Shown: in pieces, positions 35,090 to 57,300 of the stretch | How positions within the stretch are numbered: position 1 is the stretch's first letter | How the letters are laid out: the number at the start of each line of letters is the position of its first letter | Made by a program: the position numbers and the translations under genes | Source of the DNA: Candidatus Sungiibacteriota bacterium | GTDB lineage: Bacteria > Patescibacteriota > Minisyncoccia > Sungbacterales > HO2-52-23 | Length of the DNA stretch: 64,000 nt | Reading direction: 5' to 3' | Assembly (NCBI GenBank): GCA_016432465.1 | Contig: CP066690.1 | Span: 462,823 to 526,822, forward strand | Notes under the pieces: generated by a model | Told to the model about the DNA's origin: nothing | The model's input: only the letters and a program-made list of their open reading frames with translations | Databases searched by the model: none

Positions 35090-35533
35090 ATGATTAGGGT
35101 GTCAAAAAGCCCTGCCCAAACTAAGAAAATTGCCCGTTTTGTTTTAGACAGAGTTAAAAAACAAGACATAGCAGGCCCAAGAGTTATGGCGCTTGAGGGC
35201 AATTTGGGCTCCGGAAAAACCACTTTTGTGCAGGGCCTGTCCTCCACGCTGGGCATAAAGGAGCGTATCTTAAGTCCCACTTTTGTTTTGATAAAAATTT
35301 ATCAGACCGCACACCGACGATTTAAACATTTAATCCATATTGACTGCTATCGTCTCCGCTCATCAAAAGATTTACTGCATCTTGGTTTTAAAGATTTACT
35401 TTGCGATCAGGACGCGATCATTGTTATTGAGTGGGCCGATAGAATTAAAAAATTAATTCCGCACGGCGCACTATGGATAAAATTTAAGCACGGGAAAAAT
35501 CCCGCGGAGAGGATTATTAAAATTAAAAAATGA
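35090..35533 (+). CDS. tsaE: tRNA threonylcarbamoyladenosine biosynthesis ATPase TsaE
   Basis: Walker A LEGNLGSGKTTFVQGL; about 150 aa. The track ORF start at 35021 overlaps the terminator; the Met at 35090 (MIRVSK) is preferred. Confidence 0.75.
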   Translation: MIRVSKSPAQTKKIARFVLDRVKKQDIAGPRVMALEGNLGSGKTTFVQGLSSTLGIKERILSPTFVLIKIYQTAHRRFKHLIHIDCYRLRSSKDLLHLGFKDLLCDQDAIIVIEWADRIKKLIPHGALWIKFKHGKNPAERIIKIKK

Positions 35534-38199
35534 AAAAATTAGTTTTAGTTGATGCCCACGCCGTGATCCATCGCGCCTATCACGCTCTGCCCCCGCTTAC
35601 CACGTCAAGCGGCGAGCCAACCAACGCCGTTTACGGATTTACCACTATTTTTTTGCGGATTTTGCGCGAACTAAAACCCGATTATATCGCGGCTGCTTTT
35701 GATTTGCCGGGACCCACCTTCCGGCACATTGCTTACGAGCGCTATAAGGCCCAGCGGCCGGAGACACCCGCGGAGCTTTCAAGTCAATTTGCAAAAGTAA
35801 GAGAGGTGCTGGAGGCCTTTGGCGTTCCCGTTTTTGAAAAAGAAGGATACGAGGCCGACGACGTTATAGGAACCATTGCCCGAAAATTTGAGAAAGACAG
35901 AAAAGTGGAAATTATTATAGTGACGGGCGATATGGACACCCTGCAGCTTGTTCGTACGCGAGTTAGGGTCTATGCGATGAAAAAAGGAATAACAGAGACC
36001 GTAACCTATGATGAAAAAGCAGTTGAGGAGCGCTATGGATTTAAACCCGAACAAGTAGTTGATTTTAAAGGCCTTAAGGGCGACCCCTCGGATAATATCC
36101 CCGGAGTAAAAGGAATCGGCGAGAAAACCGCCACCGAACTTATTAAAGAGTTCGGCTCCATAGACGGGGTTTATAAGGCGCTGAAGAAAGGAACAAAAAA
36201 AATTTCGCCAGCCATCGCAGAAAAACTGCGTCAAGGCAAGGAGGACGCCAGATTTTCGCTGGATCTCGCGACAATCAACACTAAAGTTCCCGTTAAATTC
36301 GGCTTGGAGGCAATGAAGTATCGTGAAAAAAAAGACGGAAAGGTTAGCGCCGTTTTCCAAAAATTGGGATTTTATAGTCTTCTCAAGCGCCTTAATGTTG
36401 AGGGCGCGCCAAAATCGGAGCAAGCCGCACTGCTTGTTGTTCCCGCCAGAACCCGCGCCATTGAGGAGTTGACGGGCGTAGCAGAGCTTGAACAAGTTTT
36501 TAAAAATGCGCCAAGAACCGGCTTGGTCCTTGAGAAGGAAGATCTTTTTCTAATCCCTGAAAAAGGAGGCAGGGTTTATAAGTTAGACCCGAAACTTTTA
36601 AAAGAAGACAAGGTTAAAAGATTTTTTGAGACGCAGCGCTTCTTTGTTCACAACGGCAAAGCGCTTATTCATTTTCTGCATAGATTCAACATAGAACCCG
36701 GTCCGGTTGAGTTTGATATAATGCTTGCCGCCTATTTAACGAGCCAATTTACGCGCGACTTCTCTTTTCTGGCCGTTGCCAGCCGCGAGCTGGGGCGGCT
36801 TGTTTCGCAAAATCCGCGGGACGAAATTTCTCACTTTTTTGAGATTGTTGAGTCGCTCAAATCAAAACTAAGCGAGGGAAAAATCAAAAAAGTTTTTGAG
36901 GAGATTGAGCTTCCGGCAGTGAGAGTTTTGGCGGATATGGAGGAGCGGGGGATACTTATTGATGCCGCTTTTTTAAAAAGGCTTGCCCAAGAAGTTGATA
37001 AAAAACTTGAGGACCTCACCGCGCTAATCTATAAACTTGCCGGTGGAAATTTTAATATAAATTCCTCCCAGCAGCTCTCCCGTATTCTTTTTGAAAAATT
37101 AAACATTAAAACCCACGGACTACGCAAAACCGAGAAAGGCGGAGTGATTTCCACCGGCGCCTCGGAGCTTGAAAAACTAAAAGGCGAACACCCGATTATT
37201 GTAAAAATTCTTGGCTATAGGGAGCTTATAAAACTGAAAACTACATATATAGATACACTGCCGCGGCTTGTAAACCCCAAAACCGGACGATTGCACACAA
37301 CCTATAATCAAACAGGAACTGCCACTGGACGTCTTTCTTCCTCCGACCCCAATCTCCAAAATATTCCTATTATGACAGAGCTGGGACGCGAAATTAGAAA
37401 AGCATTTGTTGCTCAAGACGAGTACGAGCTAGTCTCTTTTGACTACTCCCAAATTGAGCTTCGCGTGGCCGCGCATATTGCCAACGATAAAAAAATGATT
37501 GAGGCTTTTAAAAAAGGCATGGACATACATAAACTTACCGCCTCCGAGATTTATAATATTCCTTTGGAAAAAGTAACGCCGGATTTACGGCGCGCAGCCA
37601 AAACTCTTAATTTCGGGGTTCTTTATGGCATGGGGTCTCAAGCTTTTGCCGAGTCAATGGCTAGGTCCCCCGAAGGGGGCCGCCACCCCGGCCCAGCGGG
37701 CCTAGGGGCGGGGATGTCGCGCGAAGATGCCAAAAAATTTATTGATGAATATTTTCACGATTTTTCAGGGGTCAAAAAATATATTGAAGACACAAAAAGA
37801 TTTGTTGAAGAAAATGGATATGTGGAAACTATCTTTGGCCGCCGCCGCTATATTCCCGAGATTCACTCGCCCAACTGGCAATTGAGGCGCGAAGCGGAAC
37901 GCATGGCCATCAACATGCCCATACAGGGGTCCAGCACCGGCGATATTATCAAACTCGCGATGATTAAGGTTGATGAGTGGATTCGGAAAGCCGCCCCAGA
38001 GGGGCGGGAAAAACTAGAAAATGGTGTCCGTATGCTTTTGCAGGTTCATGACGAGCTTTTATTTGAAATCAAAAAAAGGCTTGTTCAAAAGGTCACGCCC
38101 CAAATAAGAAAAATTATGGAGGGTGCCGTTGAGTTAAAGGTGCCGCTCGTGGTGGATGCAAAAACGGGCAGGAATTGGGGCGAGCAGAAGAGTCTGTAA
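35530..38199 (+). CDS. polA: DNA polymerase I
   Basis: 889 aa; N-terminal 5-prime nuclease (YGFTTIFLRIL, GDPSDNIPGVKGIGEKTA); C-terminal polymerase motifs A (LVSFDYSQIELRVAAHIA), B (RRAAKTLNFGVLYGM) and C (LLQVHDELLFE). Confidence 0.9.
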   Translation: MKKLVLVDAHAVIHRAYHALPPLTTSSGEPTNAVYGFTTIFLRILRELKPDYIAAAFDLPGPTFRHIAYERYKAQRPETPAELSSQFAKVREVLEAFGVPVFEKEGYEADDVIGTIARKFEKDRKVEIIIVTGDMDTLQLVRTRVRVYAMKKGITETVTYDEKAVEERYGFKPEQVVDFKGLKGDPSDNIPGVKGIGEKTATELIKEFGSIDGVYKALKKGTKKISPAIAEKLRQGKEDARFSLDLATINTKVPVKFGLEAMKYREKKDGKVSAVFQKLGFYSLLKRLNVEGAPKSEQAALLVVPARTRAIEELTGVAELEQVFKNAPRTGLVLEKEDLFLIPEKGGRVYKLDPKLLKEDKVKRFFETQRFFVHNGKALIHFLHRFNIEPGPVEFDIMLAAYLTSQFTRDFSFLAVASRELGRLVSQNPRDEISHFFEIVESLKSKLSEGKIKKVFEEIELPAVRVLADMEERGILIDAAFLKRLAQEVDKKLEDLTALIYKLAGGNFNINSSQQLSRILFEKLNIKTHGLRKTEKGGVISTGASELEKLKGEHPIIVKILGYRELIKLKTTYIDTLPRLVNPKTGRLHTTYNQTGTATGRLSSSDPNLQNIPIMTELGREIRKAFVAQDEYELVSFDYSQIELRVAAHIANDKKMIEAFKKGMDIHKLTASEIYNIPLEKVTPDLRRAAKTLNFGVLYGMGSQAFAESMARSPEGGRHPGPAGLGAGMSREDAKKFIDEYFHDFSGVKKYIEDTKRFVEENGYVETIFGRRRYIPEIHSPNWQLRREAERMAINMPIQGSSTGDIIKLAMIKVDEWIRKAAPEGREKLENGVRMLLQVHDELLFEIKKRLVQKVTPQIRKIMEGAVELKVPLVVDAKTGRNWGEQKSL
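37660..37706 (+). repeat. roughly 48-bp GC-rich CCTAGG-bounded palindromic element apparently inserted in frame inside polA
   Basis: GCTAGGTCCCCCGAAGGGGGCCGCCACCCCGGCCCAGCGGGCCTAGG encodes RSPEGGRHPGPAGLG between polymerase motif B and the following helix, where canonical Pol I has no such insert; GC of about 78%. Confidence 0.45.
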
Positions 38200-52654: not shown

Positions 52655-53044
52655 ATGATTGAATCACTGCTAAATCCTCCCTTGGCGCATTTCATTCTCC
52701 GTGTTGTCTTGGGGGTTTTAATAGTAGCTCACGGCTACCCTAAATTATTTAAAGGTTTTTCTGGATTTGCCGGCTGGCTTGACTCTATTGGGCTAAGGCC
52801 CGGCAAATTCTGGGCACTGGTTGCGGGGGCGGTAGAGTTTCTTGGAGGCATATTTTTGATTCTTGGTTTGTGGGTGCAGGTTGTGGCCATACTTTTTGCC
52901 ATCCAGATGCTGGTGGCTATGTGGAAAGTAAAATGGGGCAAGGTTGGCCTTACGGCACAGGGCGGCTGGGAACTTGACTTGATTTACCTTGCGGTAGCGA
53001 TCGCGCTGGCCCTCATGGGCCCGGGTTATTACGTAATTTTTTAA
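52655..53044 (+). CDS. DoxX-family membrane protein
   Basis: 129 aa; four TM helices; typical DoxX start LRVVLGVLIVAHGYPKL. Confidence 0.7.
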   Translation: MIESLLNPPLAHFILRVVLGVLIVAHGYPKLFKGFSGFAGWLDSIGLRPGKFWALVAGAVEFLGGIFLILGLWVQVVAILFAIQMLVAMWKVKWGKVGLTAQGGWELDLIYLAVAIALALMGPGYYVIF

Positions 53045-54462
53045 TGTCTTTTCGGGCTACGTTGGTTATTGTTGTCTCGGTTTTCGCGCTTTTACTTGGC
53101 GCGCTTTTTGCCCTGCCCGTTTATAAAAAAGAATACGCCAAAGTTGAAATTAAGGGCGTTTCTCTTTTGGTTGAGGTGGCGCGCGATTCTCAATCGCGCG
53201 CCCGAGGCCTTGCCGGCCGCGATAAGATTCCGGCGCAGGGCGGTATGCTTTTTGTTTTTGATCAACCAGCCGCCTACGGCATCTGGATGAAAGATATGAA
53301 AATTCCCATTGATATTTTCTGGATTAAAAACGGGGTAGTGGTTGATTTGGAGGAAAACGTGATCCCGTTCAAGAGCGGCTTGAGAGATACCTCCCCGCCG
53401 ATTTTTAGGCCAGACGTTACGGCGCTTTACGTTTTGGAAACTTCCGCCGGACTGGCCCAAAAACACGGTATAAAAATAGGAGATGAGATAAAAACATTTT
53501 TCAGAAACGAATTTGCCCAAATTGCTTCTCCGACCGCAGTCGCCGTGGAGGAGCCTCCGCCGGTTGGCGGCGAATATTTTATTGAGACCCTGCGTCTTGC
53601 TCCTGCCGAGGGAGGAGAGTTTAAAATAAAAAAACTTCTCACCAAAAATAAGTTCTACCGCAAATTTGCGATTAGCTACAAATCCGGCAAATTCGCCGTA
53701 AGCGGGGTTATGAACGTTCCTATGGGCGCTATACCACGGGGCGGATTCCCGGTGCTTATCTTAAACCACGGTCTGATCTCTCCCGAGATTTATTATACCG
53801 GCCGCGGTTCTCGTCGGGAGCAGGATTTTTTTGCGCGCCAGGGTTATATAACTATCCATCCCGATTATCGGGGCTTGGGCGAAACTGACCCTAAATTAGT
53901 TTGTCCCTCTACCCTAAGTTACACCAAGGACGGCTGCCACCATGATTTTTATGTTGGCTATACGGATGACCTCGTAAATCTGGTTGATGCCTTAAAAAAA
54001 TTAAATTCAAAATTAATTGATGTAAAACGTATGGGCATGTGGGGACATTCTATGGGCGGAGGTATGGCGGCGCGAGTTATGGTTTTGAATCCTGACATAC
54101 GAGCCTATGTTTTATTTGCTCCCATTAGCGCGGACGTGGAGGATAATTTTTATGAATTGAAATCAAAAGAAATAACGTGGCTGCGGGAGACTTACGGAAT
54201 GGGAAGCGAGGTTTATAAAAAAATGTCGCCGCTGACTTATTTTGCGGAAGTCCAAGCGCCGGTGCAGCTGCATCACGCGTCAACTGATAAAGACGTTCCG
54301 GTTGAATTTTCAGAGAAAATGTACGAGGCGCTAAAAAACTCCGGCAAAAAAGTGGAGTTTTATAAATATCCGGGCGAAGGACACGAATTTGGAGATGCCT
54401 GGTCTTTAGCCGCAGAGCGCGCCCTGCAGTTTTTTGATAAGTATGTGAAGGGGGCTCGGTGA
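53044..54462 (+). CDS. fusion of a DUF192 (COG1430) domain with an alpha/beta-hydrolase (S9/dienelactone-hydrolase-like) domain
   Basis: The N-terminal ARGLAGRDKIPAQGGMLFVFDQPAAYGIWMKDMKIPIDIFWI matches DUF192; the C-terminus has GMWGHSMGGGMAA (GxSxG) and a catalytic His. Confidence 0.6.
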   Translation: MSFRATLVIVVSVFALLLGALFALPVYKKEYAKVEIKGVSLLVEVARDSQSRARGLAGRDKIPAQGGMLFVFDQPAAYGIWMKDMKIPIDIFWIKNGVVVDLEENVIPFKSGLRDTSPPIFRPDVTALYVLETSAGLAQKHGIKIGDEIKTFFRNEFAQIASPTAVAVEEPPPVGGEYFIETLRLAPAEGGEFKIKKLLTKNKFYRKFAISYKSGKFAVSGVMNVPMGAIPRGGFPVLILNHGLISPEIYYTGRGSRREQDFFARQGYITIHPDYRGLGETDPKLVCPSTLSYTKDGCHHDFYVGYTDDLVNLVDALKKLNSKLIDVKRMGMWGHSMGGGMAARVMVLNPDIRAYVLFAPISADVEDNFYELKSKEITWLRETYGMGSEVYKKMSPLTYFAEVQAPVQLHHASTDKDVPVEFSEKMYEALKNSGKKVEFYKYPGEGHEFGDAWSLAAERALQFFDKYVKGAR

Positions 54463-54767
54463 TCACGCGGTTCCCTCGGTATTTTGTTTTCGCGACACGA
54501 CTCGGCCGCTCCAGTGCCTAGGCCCTTCGGGCCGGCATCTCCCTAGGCATTTCAGGCCGGGATCCCGGTCCGCAGACCTAGGGACCGGCGGCTTCGCCGC
54601 CTAGGGACGGCGGCCTCGCTAAGAGTCGGCGTAGCTTTCCTCGCAACGCTCGGAACCAAGCAAGCCACGCCTCCTATTGTCGCGAGAAACAAAATACCTC
54701 GACCGCGCGATTACGCTCGCTATAACGTATACTCCCCCCGAAAACATATCGACTCGACCGTTTTAAT
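54463..54767. repeat. GC-rich hairpin-dense intergenic repeat of the CCTAGG palindromic family (copy B)
   Basis: The core at 54494-54620 is homologous to 26841-26965 and has four CCTAGG sites. Confidence 0.55.
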
Positions 54768-54803
54768 TTGATTTTTAAACGCGGTTCTGTTATACTTTTT
54801 CTC

Positions 54804-55625
54804 ATGCGTGATACTCTGGTCATAGATATTGAAACCAAAAAATCTTTTGCCGAGGTTGGCGGAGAAAAAAACATACGCGAACTTGGTATTTCGGTTGCGG
54901 GCGTCTATTCATATGCAAAGGACGCCTTTTTTGCGTTTGAGGAACAGGAACTGCCCAAGCTTGAAGACCTGCTTAGTGATACCGGCCACATCATTGGGTT
55001 TAATATAAACCATTTTGATATTCCGGTAATGGAGCCGTATTTGGACGGTGTTTCTTTTGCAAAGTTTGCCGTAACCGATATGTTTGAAGACGCGGTCAAT
55101 TTTTTGGGACACCGCGTGGGGTTGGACGGATTGGCCAAGGCAACGCTGGGTAGCGGAAAAACAGGCCACGGTCTTGAGGCCTTGGAGTGGTTTAAGCAGG
55201 GAAGAATTGAGGAGGTAAAAAAGTACTGTTTAGACGATGTTCGCCTGACACGCGATCTTTATGAATACGGCAAAAAGCACGACCACCTGCTTTTTGAGTC
55301 CTTTATAGACGGGAAAATTCACTCTATTCCAGTTTCTTGGGGCAAAGAAATAAAAAAGCCAATTTTGCAAATTCTGGAGGAGGCATTTGATAGTCGCCAA
55401 CGACTCTCCATAGAGTATGTTTCTTCCGAAGATAGCGACGGCCTCGGGTTTAAAAAAGCGCGGCTGATTGATGTTTATAAAATAAAACCCAACGGGGAGA
55501 TTGAAGCGTATTGCCACCTGCGTCAGGGATTGAGAAATTTTAGAATAAATCGTATATTGAAGGCAGAGCCAACGAGTGATTCTTACTCGGTTCCTCAAGA
55601 TTTTCAACACACACTTTTTACTTAA
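54804..55625 (+). CDS. DEDD-type 3-prime to 5-prime exonuclease fused to a C-terminal WYL-like domain
   Basis: Exo I motif LVIDIET; Exo II motif GFNINHFDIPV; Exo III motif YCLDDVRLTRDLY; C-terminal YCHLRQGLRNFRINRI resembles the WYL FR..RI signature. Confidence 0.55.
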   Translation: MRDTLVIDIETKKSFAEVGGEKNIRELGISVAGVYSYAKDAFFAFEEQELPKLEDLLSDTGHIIGFNINHFDIPVMEPYLDGVSFAKFAVTDMFEDAVNFLGHRVGLDGLAKATLGSGKTGHGLEALEWFKQGRIEEVKKYCLDDVRLTRDLYEYGKKHDHLLFESFIDGKIHSIPVSWGKEIKKPILQILEEAFDSRQRLSIEYVSSEDSDGLGFKKARLIDVYKIKPNGEIEAYCHLRQGLRNFRINRILKAEPTSDSYSVPQDFQHTLFT

Positions 55626-55627
55626 CA

Positions 55628-56119
55628 ATGTTCAATCAGGAGATAACATTTTATAGCCAAACTCTGGGGAGGTTAAACTTTGAGGACATGATCCGCGAGG
55701 TCGTTAAATTTGTAAAAAGCCAGCCGCAGAGATTTTATAAAATCATTATCGGTACTGACTCCGAAGCGTCCAGTCCGGTTTCTCTGGTAACCGCAGTAAC
55801 TATCTGGAGGGTGGGCAACGGCGCCATACATTTTTGGACAAAATCGGAGGAAAGGAAATTCGTCACCCTGCGCGATCGCATCTGGCAGGAAGCCATAAGT
55901 TCCATTACTATGGCGCAGGAAGTACGCGGACGCCTCAAAGAAGTTTTGGGGGATGAATTTTTCTGGGACGGCAACGAAGTTCACGTTGACATCGGCGAGA
56001 ACGGGCCGACCAAGGAACTTATTGATTCTGTGGTGGGGATGATAAAAGGATATAATTTTGAACCGGTCATAAAACCGTACGCCTTTGGCGCATCTACCGT
56101 CGCCGACAAGCACACCTAG
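55628..56119 (+). CDS. YkuK/DUF458-family RNase H-like protein
   Basis: 163 aa; IIGTDSE...VTAVTIWRVGNGA...VHVDIGENGPTKELIDSVVGMIKGYNFEPVIKPYAFGASTVADKHT matches the YkuK pattern. Confidence 0.6.
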   Translation: MFNQEITFYSQTLGRLNFEDMIREVVKFVKSQPQRFYKIIIGTDSEASSPVSLVTAVTIWRVGNGAIHFWTKSEERKFVTLRDRIWQEAISSITMAQEVRGRLKEVLGDEFFWDGNEVHVDIGENGPTKELIDSVVGMIKGYNFEPVIKPYAFGASTVADKHT

Positions 56120-56177
56120 CTTCCGAGGAAGTTAAATTAATAATACGACAGCATAACAATAGCCCCTTTTGGGGCTA

Positions 56178-56206
56178 TTGACTTTTAAGTATTTTTGAAG
56201 TATAAT
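56178..56206 (+). promoter_or_regulatory. strong sigma70-like promoter TTGACT-17-TATAAT driving the tRNA-cluster transcript
   Basis: Consensus -10 and 5/6 -35 hexamers with a 17-nt spacer, immediately after the YkuK terminator hairpin ATAGCCCCTTTTTGGGGCTAT. Confidence 0.5.
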
Positions 56207-56249
56207 TAAAGTATACAGATACTGTGGGGAGGGGTCTAGGGGAATACGT

Positions 56250-56330
56250 GTAATTTAATTCGGGGCTCTCCGCTCCCGTCCCTCCTCGGCGAGCTCGCCC
56301 TTCGGGCGAAGGGGCCCCGAATTAAATTAC
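56250..56330 (+). repeat. 81-nt hairpin with perfect 17-bp arms (GTAATTTAATTCGGGGC ... GCCCCGAATTAAATTAC) enclosing a GC-rich core, in the tRNA leader
   Basis: Perfect inverted repeat seen directly; the core carries further GC hairpins (GCCCTTCGGGC). Confidence 0.5.
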
Positions 56331-56468
56331 AGGGATCTTTGAATTTAAGAGGGGACTATTGTGACCGTCCAAACAGGGGGGCAAGTGGGACACTCACTAA
56401 ATCACAAATTGGGGTGTTTTCTCACCGTGTCCTCCGATTTGGGCGGTCAAAAGGCCGCAGAAACGGTT

Positions 56469-56544: not shown

Positions 56545-56580
56545 AATAGTTTCTAAACAGGACAGAAAGGAGGATGTCAC

Positions 56581-56976
56581 ATGTGGGTTGATGGTAACGG
56601 CAGGCGGCGTTCCGCCTGCAAAAAGACAGTTCGTGGGGCGGCCCTTTTCTCGCACGCGGCGAGACGGGACCGAAACCTTCACGGTCTTGAGGTTCCCGAA
56701 CCGCTACAGCGGTTTGGTGAGCGGACGAGCGAGGAGCCTCGGCGTGAGCCTCGGCAGCGCAGTGGACCGACGACCCGTGCCGAACAGCACGTGGAACAGT
56801 GCGAGCGGGTCGAGGTGATTCCCGCAATGCCATCACATAAGGATCTCGGGATGATGGGAGCTTTGGCGAGCCTTATGGCCCTAGGCGAATCGCACACGTC
56901 CAGTCTTGCCCGGACATGGCGCTCCCTCAAGGAGGTCCCCCGCCGGATTTTCCCGCGCAGGAGGGGCGACAGGTAA
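56581..56976 (+). CDS. possible Arg-rich small protein (131 aa) with a strong SD, inside a GC-rich island; could instead be non-coding structured RNA
   Basis: AAAGGAGG 7 nt before the ATG; about 62% GC; Arg-rich translation of low confidence. Confidence 0.2.
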   Translation: MWVDGNGRRRSACKKTVRGAALFSHAARRDRNLHGLEVPEPLQRFGERTSEEPRREPRQRSGPTTRAEQHVEQCERVEVIPAMPSHKDLGMMGALASLMALGESHTSSLARTWRSLKEVPRRIFPRRRGDR

Positions 56977-56987
56977 CAGGGTTCAGT

Positions 56988-57165: not shown

Positions 57166-57207
57166 AATTAAGTCTGGCCATCAGCACATAAAGGAGGTGA
57201 GGCTTAG

Positions 57208-57300
57208 GTGTATCGTTTCCAGATCACAGGCGGCGGCATCATCATCGTGGGCAATGAGGTCCGCGATTGGGTGAGCCGTAGCTGGTCCGAGGTGAAGTGA
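57208..57300 (+). CDS. possible 30-aa peptide (GTG start) with a perfect SD immediately after tRNA-Lys
   Basis: AAAGGAGGTG then GTG; translation VYRFQITGGGIIIVGNEVRDWVSRSWSEVK; speculative. Confidence 0.2.
   Translation: MYRFQITGGGIIIVGNEVRDWVSRSWSEVK

What the first reader, a model, noticed from the sequence alone, without database searches (positions are those of the whole stretch)
54804..56119. DEDD exonuclease fused to a WYL-like domain, followed 2 nt later by a YkuK/DUF458 RNase H-like gene
The 285-aa protein has all three DnaQ-like exonuclease motifs (DIET, GFNINHFDIPV, YCLDDV) and ends in a roughly 100-aa domain carrying the FR..RI signature of WYL ligand-sensing domains (YCHLRQGLRNFRINRI). 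WYL domains are characteristic regulators or sensors of defence systems, and a fusion to a nuclease would be unusual. The YkuK-family gene that follows (IIGTDSE...) is itself an RNase H-like fold of unknown function. The pair sits next to the tRNA and GC-rich island, a typical address for defence or mobile cargo.
Basis: partly seen in the sequence, partly recalled or inferred. Interest (0 to 1): 0.55.

Follow-up and report, generated by a model that had tools for sequence, protein, structure and literature searches.

The report
Exonuclease-WYL gene paired with YkuK nuclease
A tiny uncultivated groundwater-type bacterium (Candidatus Sungbacteria) carries a conserved two-gene unit, a DNA/RNA end-trimming enzyme with a built-in single-strand-binding WYL domain followed by a small RNase H-like nuclease, which looks like ordinary chromosome housekeeping or repair rather than an anti-phage or mobile element.

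Summary
Window 54804-55625 (+) encodes a 273-aa protein: a DEDDy 3'-5' exonuclease domain plus a genuine C-terminal WYL domain (Pfam 32.7 bits, cutoff 21.8; AlphaFold2 pLDDT 94; Foldseek hits to CapW, BrxR and PafBC). Two nucleotides later, 55628-56119 (+) encodes a YkuK/DUF458 RNase H-like protein (Pfam 145 bits).

The defence or mobile-cargo reading is not supported.
- Both genes have native GC content.
- They sit in conserved chromosomal synteny.
- They are more conserved than their neighbours.
- They are absent from phages, and only generic WYL models match in PADLOC.

The exonuclease's nearest relatives are stand-alone ~190-aa exonucleases and domains fused to the C-terminus of YprA/MrfA-type repair helicases. 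The WYL domain keeps the arginine ladder that binds ssDNA in PafBC and Pif1-WYL.

Exonuclease-YkuK adjacency recurs across Patescibacteria: in both gene orders, with and without WYL, often with overlapping ORFs, and in different flanks.

The best reading is a bicistronic two-nuclease nucleic-acid processing module, most likely for DNA repair, in which WYL acts as an accessory single-strand binding or sensing module. WYL-exonuclease fusions were catalogued in 2014. The YkuK linkage appears undescribed. Interest is moderate.

The parts
54768..54796 (+). Promoter-like site (TTGATT, 17-nt spacer, TG-extended TATACT). It ends 7 nt before ATG 54804, which suggests a short-leader or leaderless transcript for the two-gene unit.
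   Evidence: 9 of 12 consensus positions, TG present. This is a consensus match only. It explains why the upstream TTG 54768 is unlikely to be the real start.
54804..55625 (+). Gene A: a 273-aa DEDDy 3'-5' exonuclease with a C-terminal WYL domain.
   Evidence: P0001 is 100% identical and named 'WYL domain-containing protein', Candidatus Sungiibacteriota; AF2 pLDDT 94.1, pTM 0.88.
54804..55343 (+). Exonuclease domain (residues 1-180). Catalytic D8, E10, D72, Y141 and D145 are invariant, as are D92, R104 and K119.
   Evidence: Invariant columns in alignments A1 and A2. PF13482 is hit by 40 of 40 members. Foldseek matches the proofreading domains of RB69, KOD, Tgo and Pol epsilon, T7 DNA polymerase, and ExoI. 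The domain is 38-43% identical to exonuclease domains at the C-terminus of YprA/MrfA-type helicases.
55362..55568 (+). WYL domain (residues 187-255), an Sm/SH3-like beta-barrel with the Arg ladder R240/R244/R247/R250. Only 18 residues follow it, so there is no WCX domain, and there is no HTH.
   Evidence: Pfam PF13280 32.7 bits. PADLOC WYL models at 1.9e-11. PafBC 6sj9 and PafC 7p5x alignments. Pif1-WYL 8bns/8bnv, BrxR and CapW by profile. Foldseek to CapW, BrxR and PafBC at E 6e-6 to 1e-4. Residue conservation.
55628..56119 (+). Gene B: a 163-aa YkuK/DUF458 RNase H-like protein with invariant D44, E88, D121 and D160 (plus H119 and H162). It starts 2 nt after the stop codon of gene A.
   Evidence: Pfam PF04308 144.9 bits. 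P0271 is 100% identical and named 'ribonuclease H-like YkuK family protein'. Invariant columns. AF2 pLDDT 82.9. Foldseek gives only weak RNase H-fold hits: the AfAgo PIWI domain, the UvrC C-terminal half, EndoV and Mos1.
56157..56190 (+). Terminator-like hairpin (10-bp stem, 6 GC pairs) followed by a T-rich tail. It closes the two-gene unit.
   Evidence: A strong promoter-like site (56178-56206, 11 of 12 positions) follows it and would serve the downstream hairpin and tRNA region.

Best explanation
The locus is a chromosomal, vertically inherited, bicistronic two-nuclease unit of Parcubacteria-type Patescibacteria. It acts on nucleic-acid ends, most likely in DNA repair or recombination.

Gene A is an active DEDDy 3'-5' exonuclease. 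Its C-terminal WYL domain acts as an accessory module that binds, and possibly senses, single-stranded nucleic acid, most likely ssDNA. It would hold the strand 5' of the 3' end being digested, which raises affinity or processivity or gates activity. The C-terminal WYL of thermophile Pif1 helicases and the SH3-like domain of E. coli ExoI play comparable roles.

Gene B (YkuK) is an RNase H-fold endonuclease with an intact D-E-D-D site. It is co-transcribed and probably translationally coupled. It would provide the nick or cleave a hybrid or flap, and the exonuclease would then resect.

Shown here: domain identities, intact catalytic and ligand-groove residues, operon-like anatomy, recurrent linkage, and a non-mobile context.

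Inferred: the substrate (DNA rather than RNA), the order of action, physical interaction between the two proteins, and whether WYL merely tethers the strand or gates the enzyme allosterically.
For: (1) Active exonuclease. D8, E10, D72, Y141 and D145 are invariant in 40 full-length sequences and 25 domain sequences. The AF2 model has pLDDT 94 and pTM 0.88. Foldseek matches proofreading exonuclease domains and ExoI.

(2) DNA-repair kinship. The nearest non-orthologous relatives (E about 1e-33, 38-43% identity) are exonuclease domains at the C-terminus of DEAD + Helicase_C + WHD_HRQ1 + MZB/DUF1998 helicases of the YprA/MrfA type. PMC12458937 places such helicase-exonuclease fusions in the DNA-repair branch of the YprA family. 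In another Patescibacteria clade the exonuclease-only gene sits between RmuC and a Cas4-like PD-(D/E)xK nuclease.

(3) WYL as a single-strand binder.
- R240, R244, R247 and R250 have the same spacing as PafB R204/R208/R211/R214. Mutating those PafB residues abolishes ssDNA binding (PMC11804915).
- The spacing also matches DdPif1 R491/R495/R498/R501 (PMC9964779).
- The direct alignment to PafC puts R244/R247/R250 on PafC R198/R201/R204.
- In the family these four positions are basic in 26, 33, 22 and 30 of 40 sequences.
- The best PDB profile hit of the WYL part is the C-terminal WYL of Pif1 helicases 8bns/8bnv. In TePif1 that domain is an accessory ssDNA-binding module (PMC6628001, citing Andis 2018).
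- Among close relatives the WYL domain is almost as conserved as the exonuclease domain (71% against 76%).

(4) Operon anatomy. There is a 2-nt spacer, a promoter-like site before gene A and a terminator-like hairpin after gene B.

(5) Linkage.
- YkuK lies directly downstream in 17 of 21 genome loci. Two more are truncated.
- It is adjacent in 40 of 101 loci chosen by the exonuclease, including members at 44-54% identity and members without WYL.
- In 4 of 10 loci chosen by a divergent YkuK, the order is reversed (YkuK then exonuclease), the ORFs overlap or nearly touch, and the flanks differ.
- Other YkuK genes sit next to FtsK, with RecA two genes further on.

(6) YkuK keeps an RNase H-type acidic tetrad. 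Its weak structural neighbours are endonucleases: PIWI, the UvrC C-terminal half and EndoV.

(7) Housekeeping character. GC is native, synteny is conserved, conservation is high, the genes are absent from phages, and no defence-system model other than generic WYL models matches.
Against: - There is no biochemical evidence for any member of this family.
- DNA against RNA is not settled. Makarova et al. 2014 describe WYL-fused exonucleases as '3'-5' exoRNase'. WYL1 of Cas13d binds ssRNA.
- Weak sequence hits include the nanoRNase NrnC.
- In one exonuclease-WYL clade the downstream gene is an RNase Z-like MBL hydrolase.
- In this window the pair lies just upstream of a tRNA cluster.
- Exonuclease-YkuK adjacency is not universal. 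Eighteen exonuclease-WYL loci with room downstream lack it, and 6 of 10 YkuK-centred loci lack the exonuclease.
- Much of the adjacency falls in one large clade, so part of it is shared ancestry.
- WYL has been lost repeatedly, so it is not essential to the exonuclease.
- The tools return no model coordinates, so I could not check whether the WYL groove faces the active site.
Confidence: 0.5

Rival explanations
1. RNA processing or turnover module. Gene A is a 3'-5' exoribonuclease of the RNase D / RNase T / NrnC type, and its WYL domain binds ssRNA. YkuK is an RNase H-like endoribonuclease. Together they mature or degrade RNAs such as tRNA 3' trailers or short oligonucleotides.
For: - Makarova 2014 (PMC4012209) labels WYL-fused exonucleases '3'-5' exoRNase'.
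- PF01612, the RNase D / WRN-type family, is hit by 20 of 40 members.
- There are weak hits to NrnC and to the 'ancestor of diDNase' entry.
- An RNase Z-like MBL hydrolase lies downstream of the exonuclease-WYL gene in a sister clade.
- The pair lies immediately upstream of four tRNA genes in this window.
- WYL domains have an Sm-like fold, and WYL1 binds ssRNA (own knowledge; PMC5935466 describes WYL1).
- Majorek 2014 (PMC3985635) groups YkuK with the RNase H1 clade.
Against: - The strongest homology is to exonuclease domains fused to YprA/MrfA DNA-repair helicases.
- The other recurrent neighbours are DNA proteins: RmuC, a Cas4-like nuclease, FtsK and RecA.
- The tRNA cluster is not a conserved neighbour in relatives.
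- The structural neighbours are DNA polymerase proofreading domains and ExoI.
- The WYL Arg ladder matches ssDNA-binding WYL domains.
Confidence: 0.25
2. Anti-phage defence or mobile cargo. The WYL domain senses an infection cue, either a nucleotide-derived ligand or phage ssDNA, and switches on the fused exonuclease. YkuK acts as a second effector. The module would have been delivered next to tRNA genes.
For: - WYL domains are enriched in defence loci (PMC4012209).
- PADLOC WYL models match gene A.
- tRNA genes and a 62% GC stretch lie downstream.
- YprA-family helicases also occur in defence systems (PMC12458937).
Against: - No PADLOC model hits YkuK, and only generic WYL models (including WYL-bearing Cas3 and reverse-transcriptase models, matched over the WYL region alone) hit gene A.
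- GC equals the genome background.
- Flanking synteny with housekeeping genes is conserved across species.
- The two proteins are more conserved than their neighbours.
- More than 1000 homologues of each protein have near-constant length.
- There are no homologues in 50,697 phage records other than polymerase exonuclease domains.
- No integrase, repeat or toxin-like partner is present.
- The GC-rich pieces are not conserved with the pair.
Confidence: 0.07
3. Trans-acting proofreading or polymerase-associated exonuclease. The DEDDy domain supplies 3'-5' editing to a polymerase that lacks it. The window's PolA shows only 5'-3' exonuclease and polymerase domains. WYL would tether the enzyme to the single-stranded template.
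For: - The closest structural matches are proofreading domains of B-family and T7 polymerases.
- Pelagibacter phage DNA polymerases are the only phage hits.
- The window's PolA has no detectable 3'-5' exonuclease Pfam domain.
Against: - No polymerase gene is linked to the exonuclease in any of the 101 exonuclease-selected loci or the four exonuclease-bearing YkuK-centred loci.
- The recurrent partners are nucleases and helicases, not polymerases.
- The absence of a Pfam hit in PolA is weak evidence.
- This reading does not explain YkuK.
Confidence: 0.08

Closest known systems
Bacterial Pif1 helicases with a C-terminal WYL domain (Thermotoga elfii TePif1; Deferribacter and Sulfurihydrogenibium Pif1, PDB 8BNS/8BNV)
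   Same: A nucleic-acid enzyme carries a C-terminal WYL domain, with no HTH and no WCX. These are the best PDB profile hit for the WYL part. They have the same R-x3-R-x2-R-x2-R ladder, which is implicated in ssDNA binding (PMC9964779). In Pif1 the WYL is dispensable and patchily present, as it is here.
   Different: The catalytic module is an SF1B helicase, not a DEDDy exonuclease. There is no YkuK partner. The organisms are thermophiles rather than Patescibacteria.
MrfAB (YprAB) mitomycin-repair helicase/exonuclease of Bacillus subtilis, and MrfA-exonuclease fusion proteins
   Same: Both are 3'-5' DEDD exonucleases working in a repair context. The nearest relatives of gene A's exonuclease domain are C-terminal fusions to YprA/MrfA-type helicases. 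MrfB's structural neighbours are PolB exonuclease domains and NrnC (PMC11194089), as are this protein's.
   Different: B. subtilis MrfB is DEDDh with a TPR tail, whereas this protein is DEDDy with a WYL tail. MrfB (8UN9) is not found by the family profile even at E<=10. No MrfA-type helicase was seen among the 10 longest ORFs (>=507 aa) of the window.
HTH-WYL-WCX transcription factors (PafBC, DriD, CapW, BrxR)
   Same: The WYL fold and the basic groove are the same, and these are the top Foldseek hits. The ligand of these regulators, where it is known (PafBC, DriD, CapW), is ssDNA produced by damage (PMC11804915, PMC9186387, PMC11662680).
   Different: Those proteins are dimeric DNA-binding regulators with an N-terminal HTH and a C-terminal WCX domain, and both are absent here. 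Here the output is an enzyme, not transcription.
E. coli Exonuclease I (SbcB)
   Same: A DnaQ-fold 3'-5' ssDNA exonuclease followed by a small SH3-like beta-barrel that helps grip ssDNA. Foldseek matches span most of the model (1fxx, 4jrp; TM 0.35-0.40).
   Different: ExoI is DEDDh, is larger (about 475 aa), and has a third helical domain. Its barrel is not a WYL domain. There is no sequence relationship beyond the fold.
YkuK / DUF458 (PF04308, COG1978) of Bacillus subtilis
   Same: Gene B is a clear member (144.9 bits). It has the predicted RNase H-like fold with a conserved acidic site (PMC3985635; Knizewski and Ginalski 2005, cited there).
   Different: The family's function is still unknown. 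I found no paper in the held library linking it to a DEDD exonuclease, and that linkage is what is seen here.
NrnC / RNase D type DEDDy exoribonucleases
   Same: The DEDDy motif arrangement, a domain of about 200 aa, and weak sequence hits.
   Different: E-values are only 0.2-0.5. NrnC forms octameric rings and has no WYL domain. Context here points to DNA.

Membership tests
DEDD (DnaQ-like) 3'-5' exonuclease superfamily, DEDDy subgroup | Exo I (D-x-E), Exo II (D) and Exo III (Y-x3-D) acidic and Tyr residues | tested here: met
   D8, E10, D72, Y141 and D145 are invariant in A1 (40 sequences) and A2 (25 sequences).
DEDD (DnaQ-like) 3'-5' exonuclease superfamily, DEDDy subgroup | RNase H-like exonuclease fold | tested here: met
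   AF2 pLDDT 94. Foldseek probability 1.0 to RB69, KOD, Tgo, Pol epsilon and T7 proofreading domains and to ExoI.
DEDD (DnaQ-like) 3'-5' exonuclease superfamily, DEDDy subgroup | Curated profile match | tested here: inconclusive
   For the window protein, PF13482 scores 22.0 (cutoff 22), PF01612 23.0 (cutoff 23.6) and PF10108 23.0 (cutoff 24). PF13482 is hit by 40 of 40 homologues, with a best E-value of 6e-12.
DEDD (DnaQ-like) 3'-5' exonuclease superfamily, DEDDy subgroup | Metal-dependent 3'-5' exonuclease activity | not testable with these tools
   Needs biochemistry.
WYL domain (PF13280) | Profile match above the gathering score | tested here: met
   32.7 bits against 21.8, residues 187-255. 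25 of 40 family members also match. PADLOC WYL models match at 1.9e-11.
WYL domain (PF13280) | Sm/SH3-like beta-barrel fold | tested here: met
   Five strands at 199-260 in the model. Foldseek to CapW 7tb5, BrxR 7qfz and PafBC 6sj9 at E 6e-6 to 1e-4.
WYL domain (PF13280) | Conserved positively charged ligand groove (the Arg residues needed for ssDNA binding in PafBC, DriD and Pif1) | tested here: met
   R240, R244, R247 and R250 are present. They align with PafC R198/R201/R204 and have the spacing of PafB R204/208/211/214 and DdPif1 R491/495/498/501 (PMC11804915, PMC9964779). Family conservation is 65-82% basic, except 55% at position 247.
WYL domain (PF13280) | Literal W-Y-L tripeptide | tested here: not met
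   The equivalent positions are G231-E232-I233. The literature says the tripeptide is present only in a subset of WYL domains and does not define the family (PMC11804915).
HTH-WYL-WCX regulators (PafBC, DriD, CapW, BrxR) | N-terminal (w)HTH DNA-binding domain and C-terminal WCX dimerisation domain | tested here: not met
   The N-terminus is the exonuclease domain. Only 18 residues follow the WYL domain. There is no HTH Pfam hit.
MrfB (YprB) exonuclease family, in the strict sense | DEDDh catalytic His, C-terminal TPR domain, and sequence relationship to B. subtilis MrfB | tested here: not met
   The protein has Tyr141 rather than His and a WYL tail rather than TPR. The exonuclease family profile does not retrieve 8UN9 from the PDB at E<=10.
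MrfB (YprB) exonuclease family, in the strict sense | Genetic or physical coupling to a YprA/MrfA helicase | tested here: inconclusive
   Homologous exonuclease domains are fused to YprA-type helicases in other phyla. No such helicase is among the 10 longest ORFs (>=507 aa) of this window. The rest of the genome was not available.
YkuK / DUF458 (PF04308) | Profile match above the gathering score | tested here: met
   144.9 bits against 25, with full-length coverage. NCBI names the identical protein 'ribonuclease H-like YkuK family protein'.
YkuK / DUF458 (PF04308) | RNase H-like fold with a conserved acidic catalytic set | tested here: met
   D44, E88, D121 and D160 are invariant across homologues at 46-83% identity. 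The model has pLDDT 82.9. Foldseek neighbours are all RNase H-fold nucleases (PIWI, UvrC C-terminal half, EndoV, Mos1), but only at E 2e-3 to 5e-2.
Known anti-phage defence systems (PADLOC 2.0) | Match of the component proteins to a system model, and a defence-island context | tested here: not met
   Only generic WYL models (including WYL-bearing Cas3 and reverse-transcriptase models, over the WYL region alone) match gene A, and nothing matches YkuK. The neighbourhood is housekeeping and syntenic.

The most novel reading that the evidence does not exclude
The exonuclease (with or without WYL) and YkuK form a previously unrecognised two-nuclease excision or processing pathway of Patescibacteria. 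YkuK would make an EndoV/UvrC-like incision next to a lesion or hybrid. The DEDDy exonuclease would then remove the damaged strand 3'-5'. Its WYL domain would directly sense the exposed ssDNA and gate the enzyme. This would be the first case of a WYL domain allosterically controlling a nuclease rather than a transcription factor or helicase. It would also give the YkuK/DUF458 family, unexplained since 2005, its first function.
Probability: 0.2. Interest if true: 0.6.

Novelty: new variant of a known kind. Interest (0 to 1): 0.4.

Why it matters
If the reading is right, three things follow.

1. It gives a concrete, testable partner and context for YkuK/DUF458. This widespread RNase H-like family, found in Bacillus and many other bacteria, has been 'function unknown' since its fold was predicted in 2005.

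2. It extends the idea that WYL domains are single-strand nucleic-acid sensors from transcription factors and Pif1 helicases to an exonuclease. The system is small (273 aa) and easy to test.

3. It points to part of the stripped-down nucleic-acid repair or processing toolkit of ultra-small Patescibacteria, which lack many canonical enzymes.

It does not appear to be a new defence system, so its value lies in repair and RNA-DNA enzymology rather than immunity.

Tried and rejected
- **Complex prediction.** I built 20 paired exonuclease + linker + YkuK chains from adjacent genes (A3) to ask AlphaFold2 for a complex. Interaction therefore remains untested.
- **MrfB membership.** The exonuclease family profile does not retrieve B. 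subtilis MrfB (8UN9) at E<=10, and the catalytic type differs. I dropped 'MrfB homologue' in favour of 'relative of YprA-fused DEDDy exonucleases'.
- **Solved relative of YkuK.** Nothing was found by sequence. Foldseek gave only weak RNase H-fold hits. The PIWI resemblance is generic, and I did not pursue it as an Argonaute link.
- **Rosetta-stone fusions.** No exonuclease-YkuK fusion occurs among 150 exonuclease representatives or 120 YkuK homologues.
- **Phage or mobile origin.** tblastn against phages found only polymerase exonuclease domains and one 29% identical YkuK-like hit in an uncultured jumbo phage.
- **Rfam on the GC-rich stretches and intergenic regions.** Only the four tRNAs matched.
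- **Supplement of Makarova 2014.** I looked for the listed WYL-exoRNase examples and found nothing usable in the held text.
- **Literature.** No paper in the held library links WYL or YkuK to this fusion in Patescibacteria.
- **Reach of the genome scan.** The single genome-contig scan was run with one protein, so it reached only close relatives. I compensated with the metagenome scan using an alignment and with YkuK-centred look-ups.
Full report
**What is there**

On the + strand an ORF runs from TTG 54768 (285 aa), or ATG 54804 (273 aa), to TAA 55623-55625. A second ORF starts two nucleotides later at ATG 55628 and ends at 56119 (163 aa). ATG 54804 is almost certainly the real start, for three reasons.
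- The identical database protein P0001 is 273 aa.
- Forty homologues start at the same position.
- A promoter-like TTGATT-17-TG-TATACT occupies 54768-54796, just upstream of that ATG.

A 10-bp GC-rich hairpin with a T tail follows the second gene at 56157-56190. The anatomy is therefore a compact two-gene transcription unit.

**Organism and setting**

P0001 and P0271 are 100% identical to the two proteins. They come from a 923-kb contig of Candidatus Sungiibacteriota, in the Parcubacteria group of Patescibacteria. The rest of the window is an ordinary small chromosome: PolA, UvrB, UvrD, PBP1, a type IV pilus ATPase and E1 dehydrogenase. GC over the two genes is 0.45, the same as the background.

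**Gene A, exonuclease domain**

Pfam gives three DEDD exonuclease families at about their cutoffs (PF13482, PF10108, PF01612). PF13482 is hit by all 40 aligned homologues. D8, E10, D72, Y141 and D145 are invariant, which makes this a DEDDy enzyme. The AlphaFold2 model is confident (pLDDT 94.1, pTM 0.88). Foldseek matches the proofreading domains of B-family and T7 polymerases, and ExoI.

An exhaustive search of 1.84 billion representatives found 1841 relatives, in four architectures:
- exonuclease + WYL, about 270 aa;
- exonuclease alone, about 190 aa;
- an N-terminal extension + exonuclease, about 300 aa;
- the exonuclease at the C-terminus of 800-1176-aa proteins.

The long proteins are DEAD + Helicase_C + WHD_HRQ1 + MZB(DUF1998) helicases of the YprA/MrfA type, from Desulfobacterales, Aerophobetes and others. 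A recent survey places YprA helicases that are fused to, or adjacent to, an exonuclease in the DNA-repair branch of that family (PMC12458937). The founding pair, MrfAB, repairs mitomycin C damage in B. subtilis (10.1101/426304; PMC11194089).

This protein is nevertheless not MrfB in the strict sense. MrfB is DEDDh with a TPR tail, and the family profile does not find its structure 8UN9 even at E<=10.

**Gene A, WYL domain**

Residues 187-255 score 32.7 bits on PF13280 (cutoff 21.8) and match PADLOC WYL models. Sequence matches include PafBC and PafC. Profile matches include Pif1-WYL helicases 8bns/8bnv, BrxR and CapW. Foldseek puts CapW, BrxR and PafBC at the top.

There is no HTH and no WCX domain, so this is not a WYL regulator.

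- The direct alignment to PafC places R244/R247/R250 on PafC R198/R201/R204.
- The spacing equals PafB R204/R208/R211/R214. Mutating those residues abolishes ssDNA binding (PMC11804915).
- The spacing also equals DdPif1 R491/R495/R498/R501 (PMC9964779).

In T. elfii Pif1 the C-terminal WYL is an accessory ssDNA-binding module that couples ATPase and helicase activity (PMC6628001). Among 117 close homologues the WYL part is 71% identical to the query, against 76% for the exonuclease part, so it is under constraint.

Across the wider family the ladder is basic in 55-82% of sequences. On a tree of the exonuclease domain, WYL-bearing and WYL-less members interleave. WYL is therefore an accessory module that has been lost repeatedly.

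**Gene B**

PF04308 (YkuK/DUF458) scores 144.9 bits. D44, E88, D121 and D160, plus H119 and H162, are invariant in homologues down to 46% identity. No solved relative exists by sequence.

The model (pLDDT 82.9) has only weak RNase H-fold neighbours: the AfAgo PIWI domain, the UvrC C-terminal half, EndoV and Mos1. That agrees with earlier fold predictions (PMC3985635). It looks like an active endonuclease of unknown substrate.

**Do the two genes belong together?**

Exonuclease-centred evidence:
- In 21 species-representative genomes, YkuK is directly downstream in 17. Two more loci are truncated and two lack it.
- Across 101 loci selected by the exonuclease (37-76% identity), 40 have YkuK adjacent.
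- These include exonuclease-WYL genes at 44-49% identity (L035, L039, L040, L041, L050).
- They also include WYL-less exonucleases (L020, L021, L067, L083, L090, L092, L100), and two loci in the reverse order (L094, L095).
- The flanks differ: DUF192-S9 peptidase, Mur ligase + c40, an LTD protein, and others.

YkuK-centred evidence, from ten loci selected by a divergent YkuK in other Patescibacteria:
- Four have YkuK followed at once by a PF13482 exonuclease of about 200 aa without WYL. The ORFs overlap or lie up to 123 nt apart, and the flanks again differ.
- Four others have YkuK next to FtsK. In three of these, RecA lies two genes further on.

Adjacency that survives gene-order inversion, loss of WYL and replacement of flanks argues for functional coupling. 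It is not universal, however, and much of it lies in one large clade. No fused exonuclease-YkuK protein was seen.

Other clades pair the exonuclease differently: with RmuC and a Cas4-like PD-(D/E)xK nuclease, or, for exonuclease-WYL, with an RNase Z-like MBL hydrolase.

**Is it defence or mobile cargo?**

The evidence says no.
- Only generic WYL models (including WYL-bearing Cas3 and reverse-transcriptase models, over the WYL region alone) match in PADLOC, and YkuK matches nothing.
- The upstream block (Mur ligase, archease, PHP, DoxX, DUF192-S9 peptidase) is syntenic across species.
- The pair is 64-81% identical among relatives, against 45-58% for the neighbouring peptidase.
- Phage records hold no homologues beyond polymerase exonuclease domains.
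- The GC-rich pieces near the pair are not conserved with it.

**Mechanism proposed**

Shown here:
- an intact DEDDy site;
- a bona fide WYL domain with the single-strand-binding Arg ladder;
- an intact RNase H-type site in YkuK;
- operon anatomy;
- recurrent linkage;
- a housekeeping context.

Inferred:
- YkuK makes an endonucleolytic cut at a nick, flap or hybrid.
- The exonuclease degrades from the 3' end while WYL grips, or senses, the single strand 5' of it. The WYL of Pif1 and the SH3-like domain of ExoI are analogues.

I favour DNA because of the kinship with YprA-fused exonucleases and the RmuC, Cas4-like, FtsK and RecA neighbourhoods. RNA remains a serious rival, for these reasons:
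- the 'exoRNase' label in PMC4012209;
- the RNase Z-like neighbour in one clade;
- weak NrnC similarity;
- ssRNA binding by WYL1.

My confidences are 0.5 for the two-nuclease, probably DNA, housekeeping module, 0.25 for RNA processing, 0.08 for a polymerase-associated editing role and 0.07 for defence.

**Novelty and score**

The WYL + 3'-5' exonuclease architecture was catalogued in 2014 (PMC4012209), and both proteins already carry family names in NCBI. No member has been characterised. I found no report of the exonuclease-YkuK linkage.

I class the locus as a new variant of a known kind: a nucleic-acid enzyme with an accessory WYL domain. Interest is 0.4. The finding is real, tidy and testable, and it is useful as a handle on YkuK/DUF458. 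It is not a surprising new system.

Noticed in passing
window 54478-54698: A GC-rich element of about 220 nt lies in the 340-nt gap upstream of gene A. It is bounded by imperfect inverted repeats of about 20 nt (54478-54497 and 54678-54698) and holds four CCTAGG-containing repeats. The predicted RNA fold is -111.6 kcal/mol (z = -5.7). It is single-copy in the window and has no match in 101 related loci. It may be a MITE-like insertion or a lineage-specific structured RNA.
   Followed up: partly
window 56178-56331: A strong promoter-like site (TTGACT-17-TATAAT, 11 of 12 positions, 56178-56206) is followed by a long hairpin at 56248-56331 (z = -3.2). Parts of this region are conserved in relatives (L001, L004, L009, L011, L017, L026, L032, L055). 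There is no Rfam match. This is a candidate small non-coding RNA between the YkuK terminator and tRNA-Met.
   Followed up: partly
window 56545-56987 and 57166-57300: A 62% GC stretch lies between tRNA-Met and tRNA-Glu. It holds a 131-aa arginine-rich ORF (56581-56976) with AAAGGAGG upstream. A similar AAAGGAGG plus a 30-codon ORF (GTG 57209) follows tRNA-Lys. Neither has a DNA or protein match in related loci, and there is no Rfam hit. The origin is unknown.
   Followed up: partly
loci L071-L074, L077, L084, L087, L088, L091, L096: In another Patescibacteria clade the WYL-less exonuclease follows RmuC. Where downstream sequence is available (L071-L073, L084), it is followed in turn by a Cas4-like PD-(D/E)xK nuclease with a C-terminal Cys cluster. 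This is a second recurrent nuclease neighbourhood for the same exonuclease family.
   Followed up: partly
loci L102, L104, L108, L110: In Pacebacteria-type genomes YkuK sits in a conserved string with ribosomal protein S18, FtsK and an HTH protein. In L102, L104 and L108 the order is S18 - YkuK - FtsK - HTH - RecA, and S18 immediately precedes YkuK. This suggests a DNA or chromosome context for YkuK even where the exonuclease is not adjacent.
   Followed up: no
window 35530-38199: The PolA of this genome matches only the 5'-3' exonuclease and polymerase Pfam domains. Residues of about 270-480 give no 3'-5' exonuclease hit, so PolA proofreading may be absent or degenerate.
   Followed up: no
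window 53044-54462: The upstream neighbour is a fusion of DUF192 (COG1430) with an S9 prolyl-oligopeptidase / alpha-beta hydrolase domain (472 aa). It is conserved next to the exonuclease gene in many relatives but evolves faster than the nuclease pair.
   Followed up: no
loci L042-L052: In a sister clade at 42-46% identity the exonuclease-WYL gene is followed not by YkuK but by a 250-aa MBL-fold hydrolase. That hydrolase resembles RNase Z (145 bits, below the equivalog cutoff) and a cyclic-nucleotide phosphodiesterase model.
   Followed up: partly
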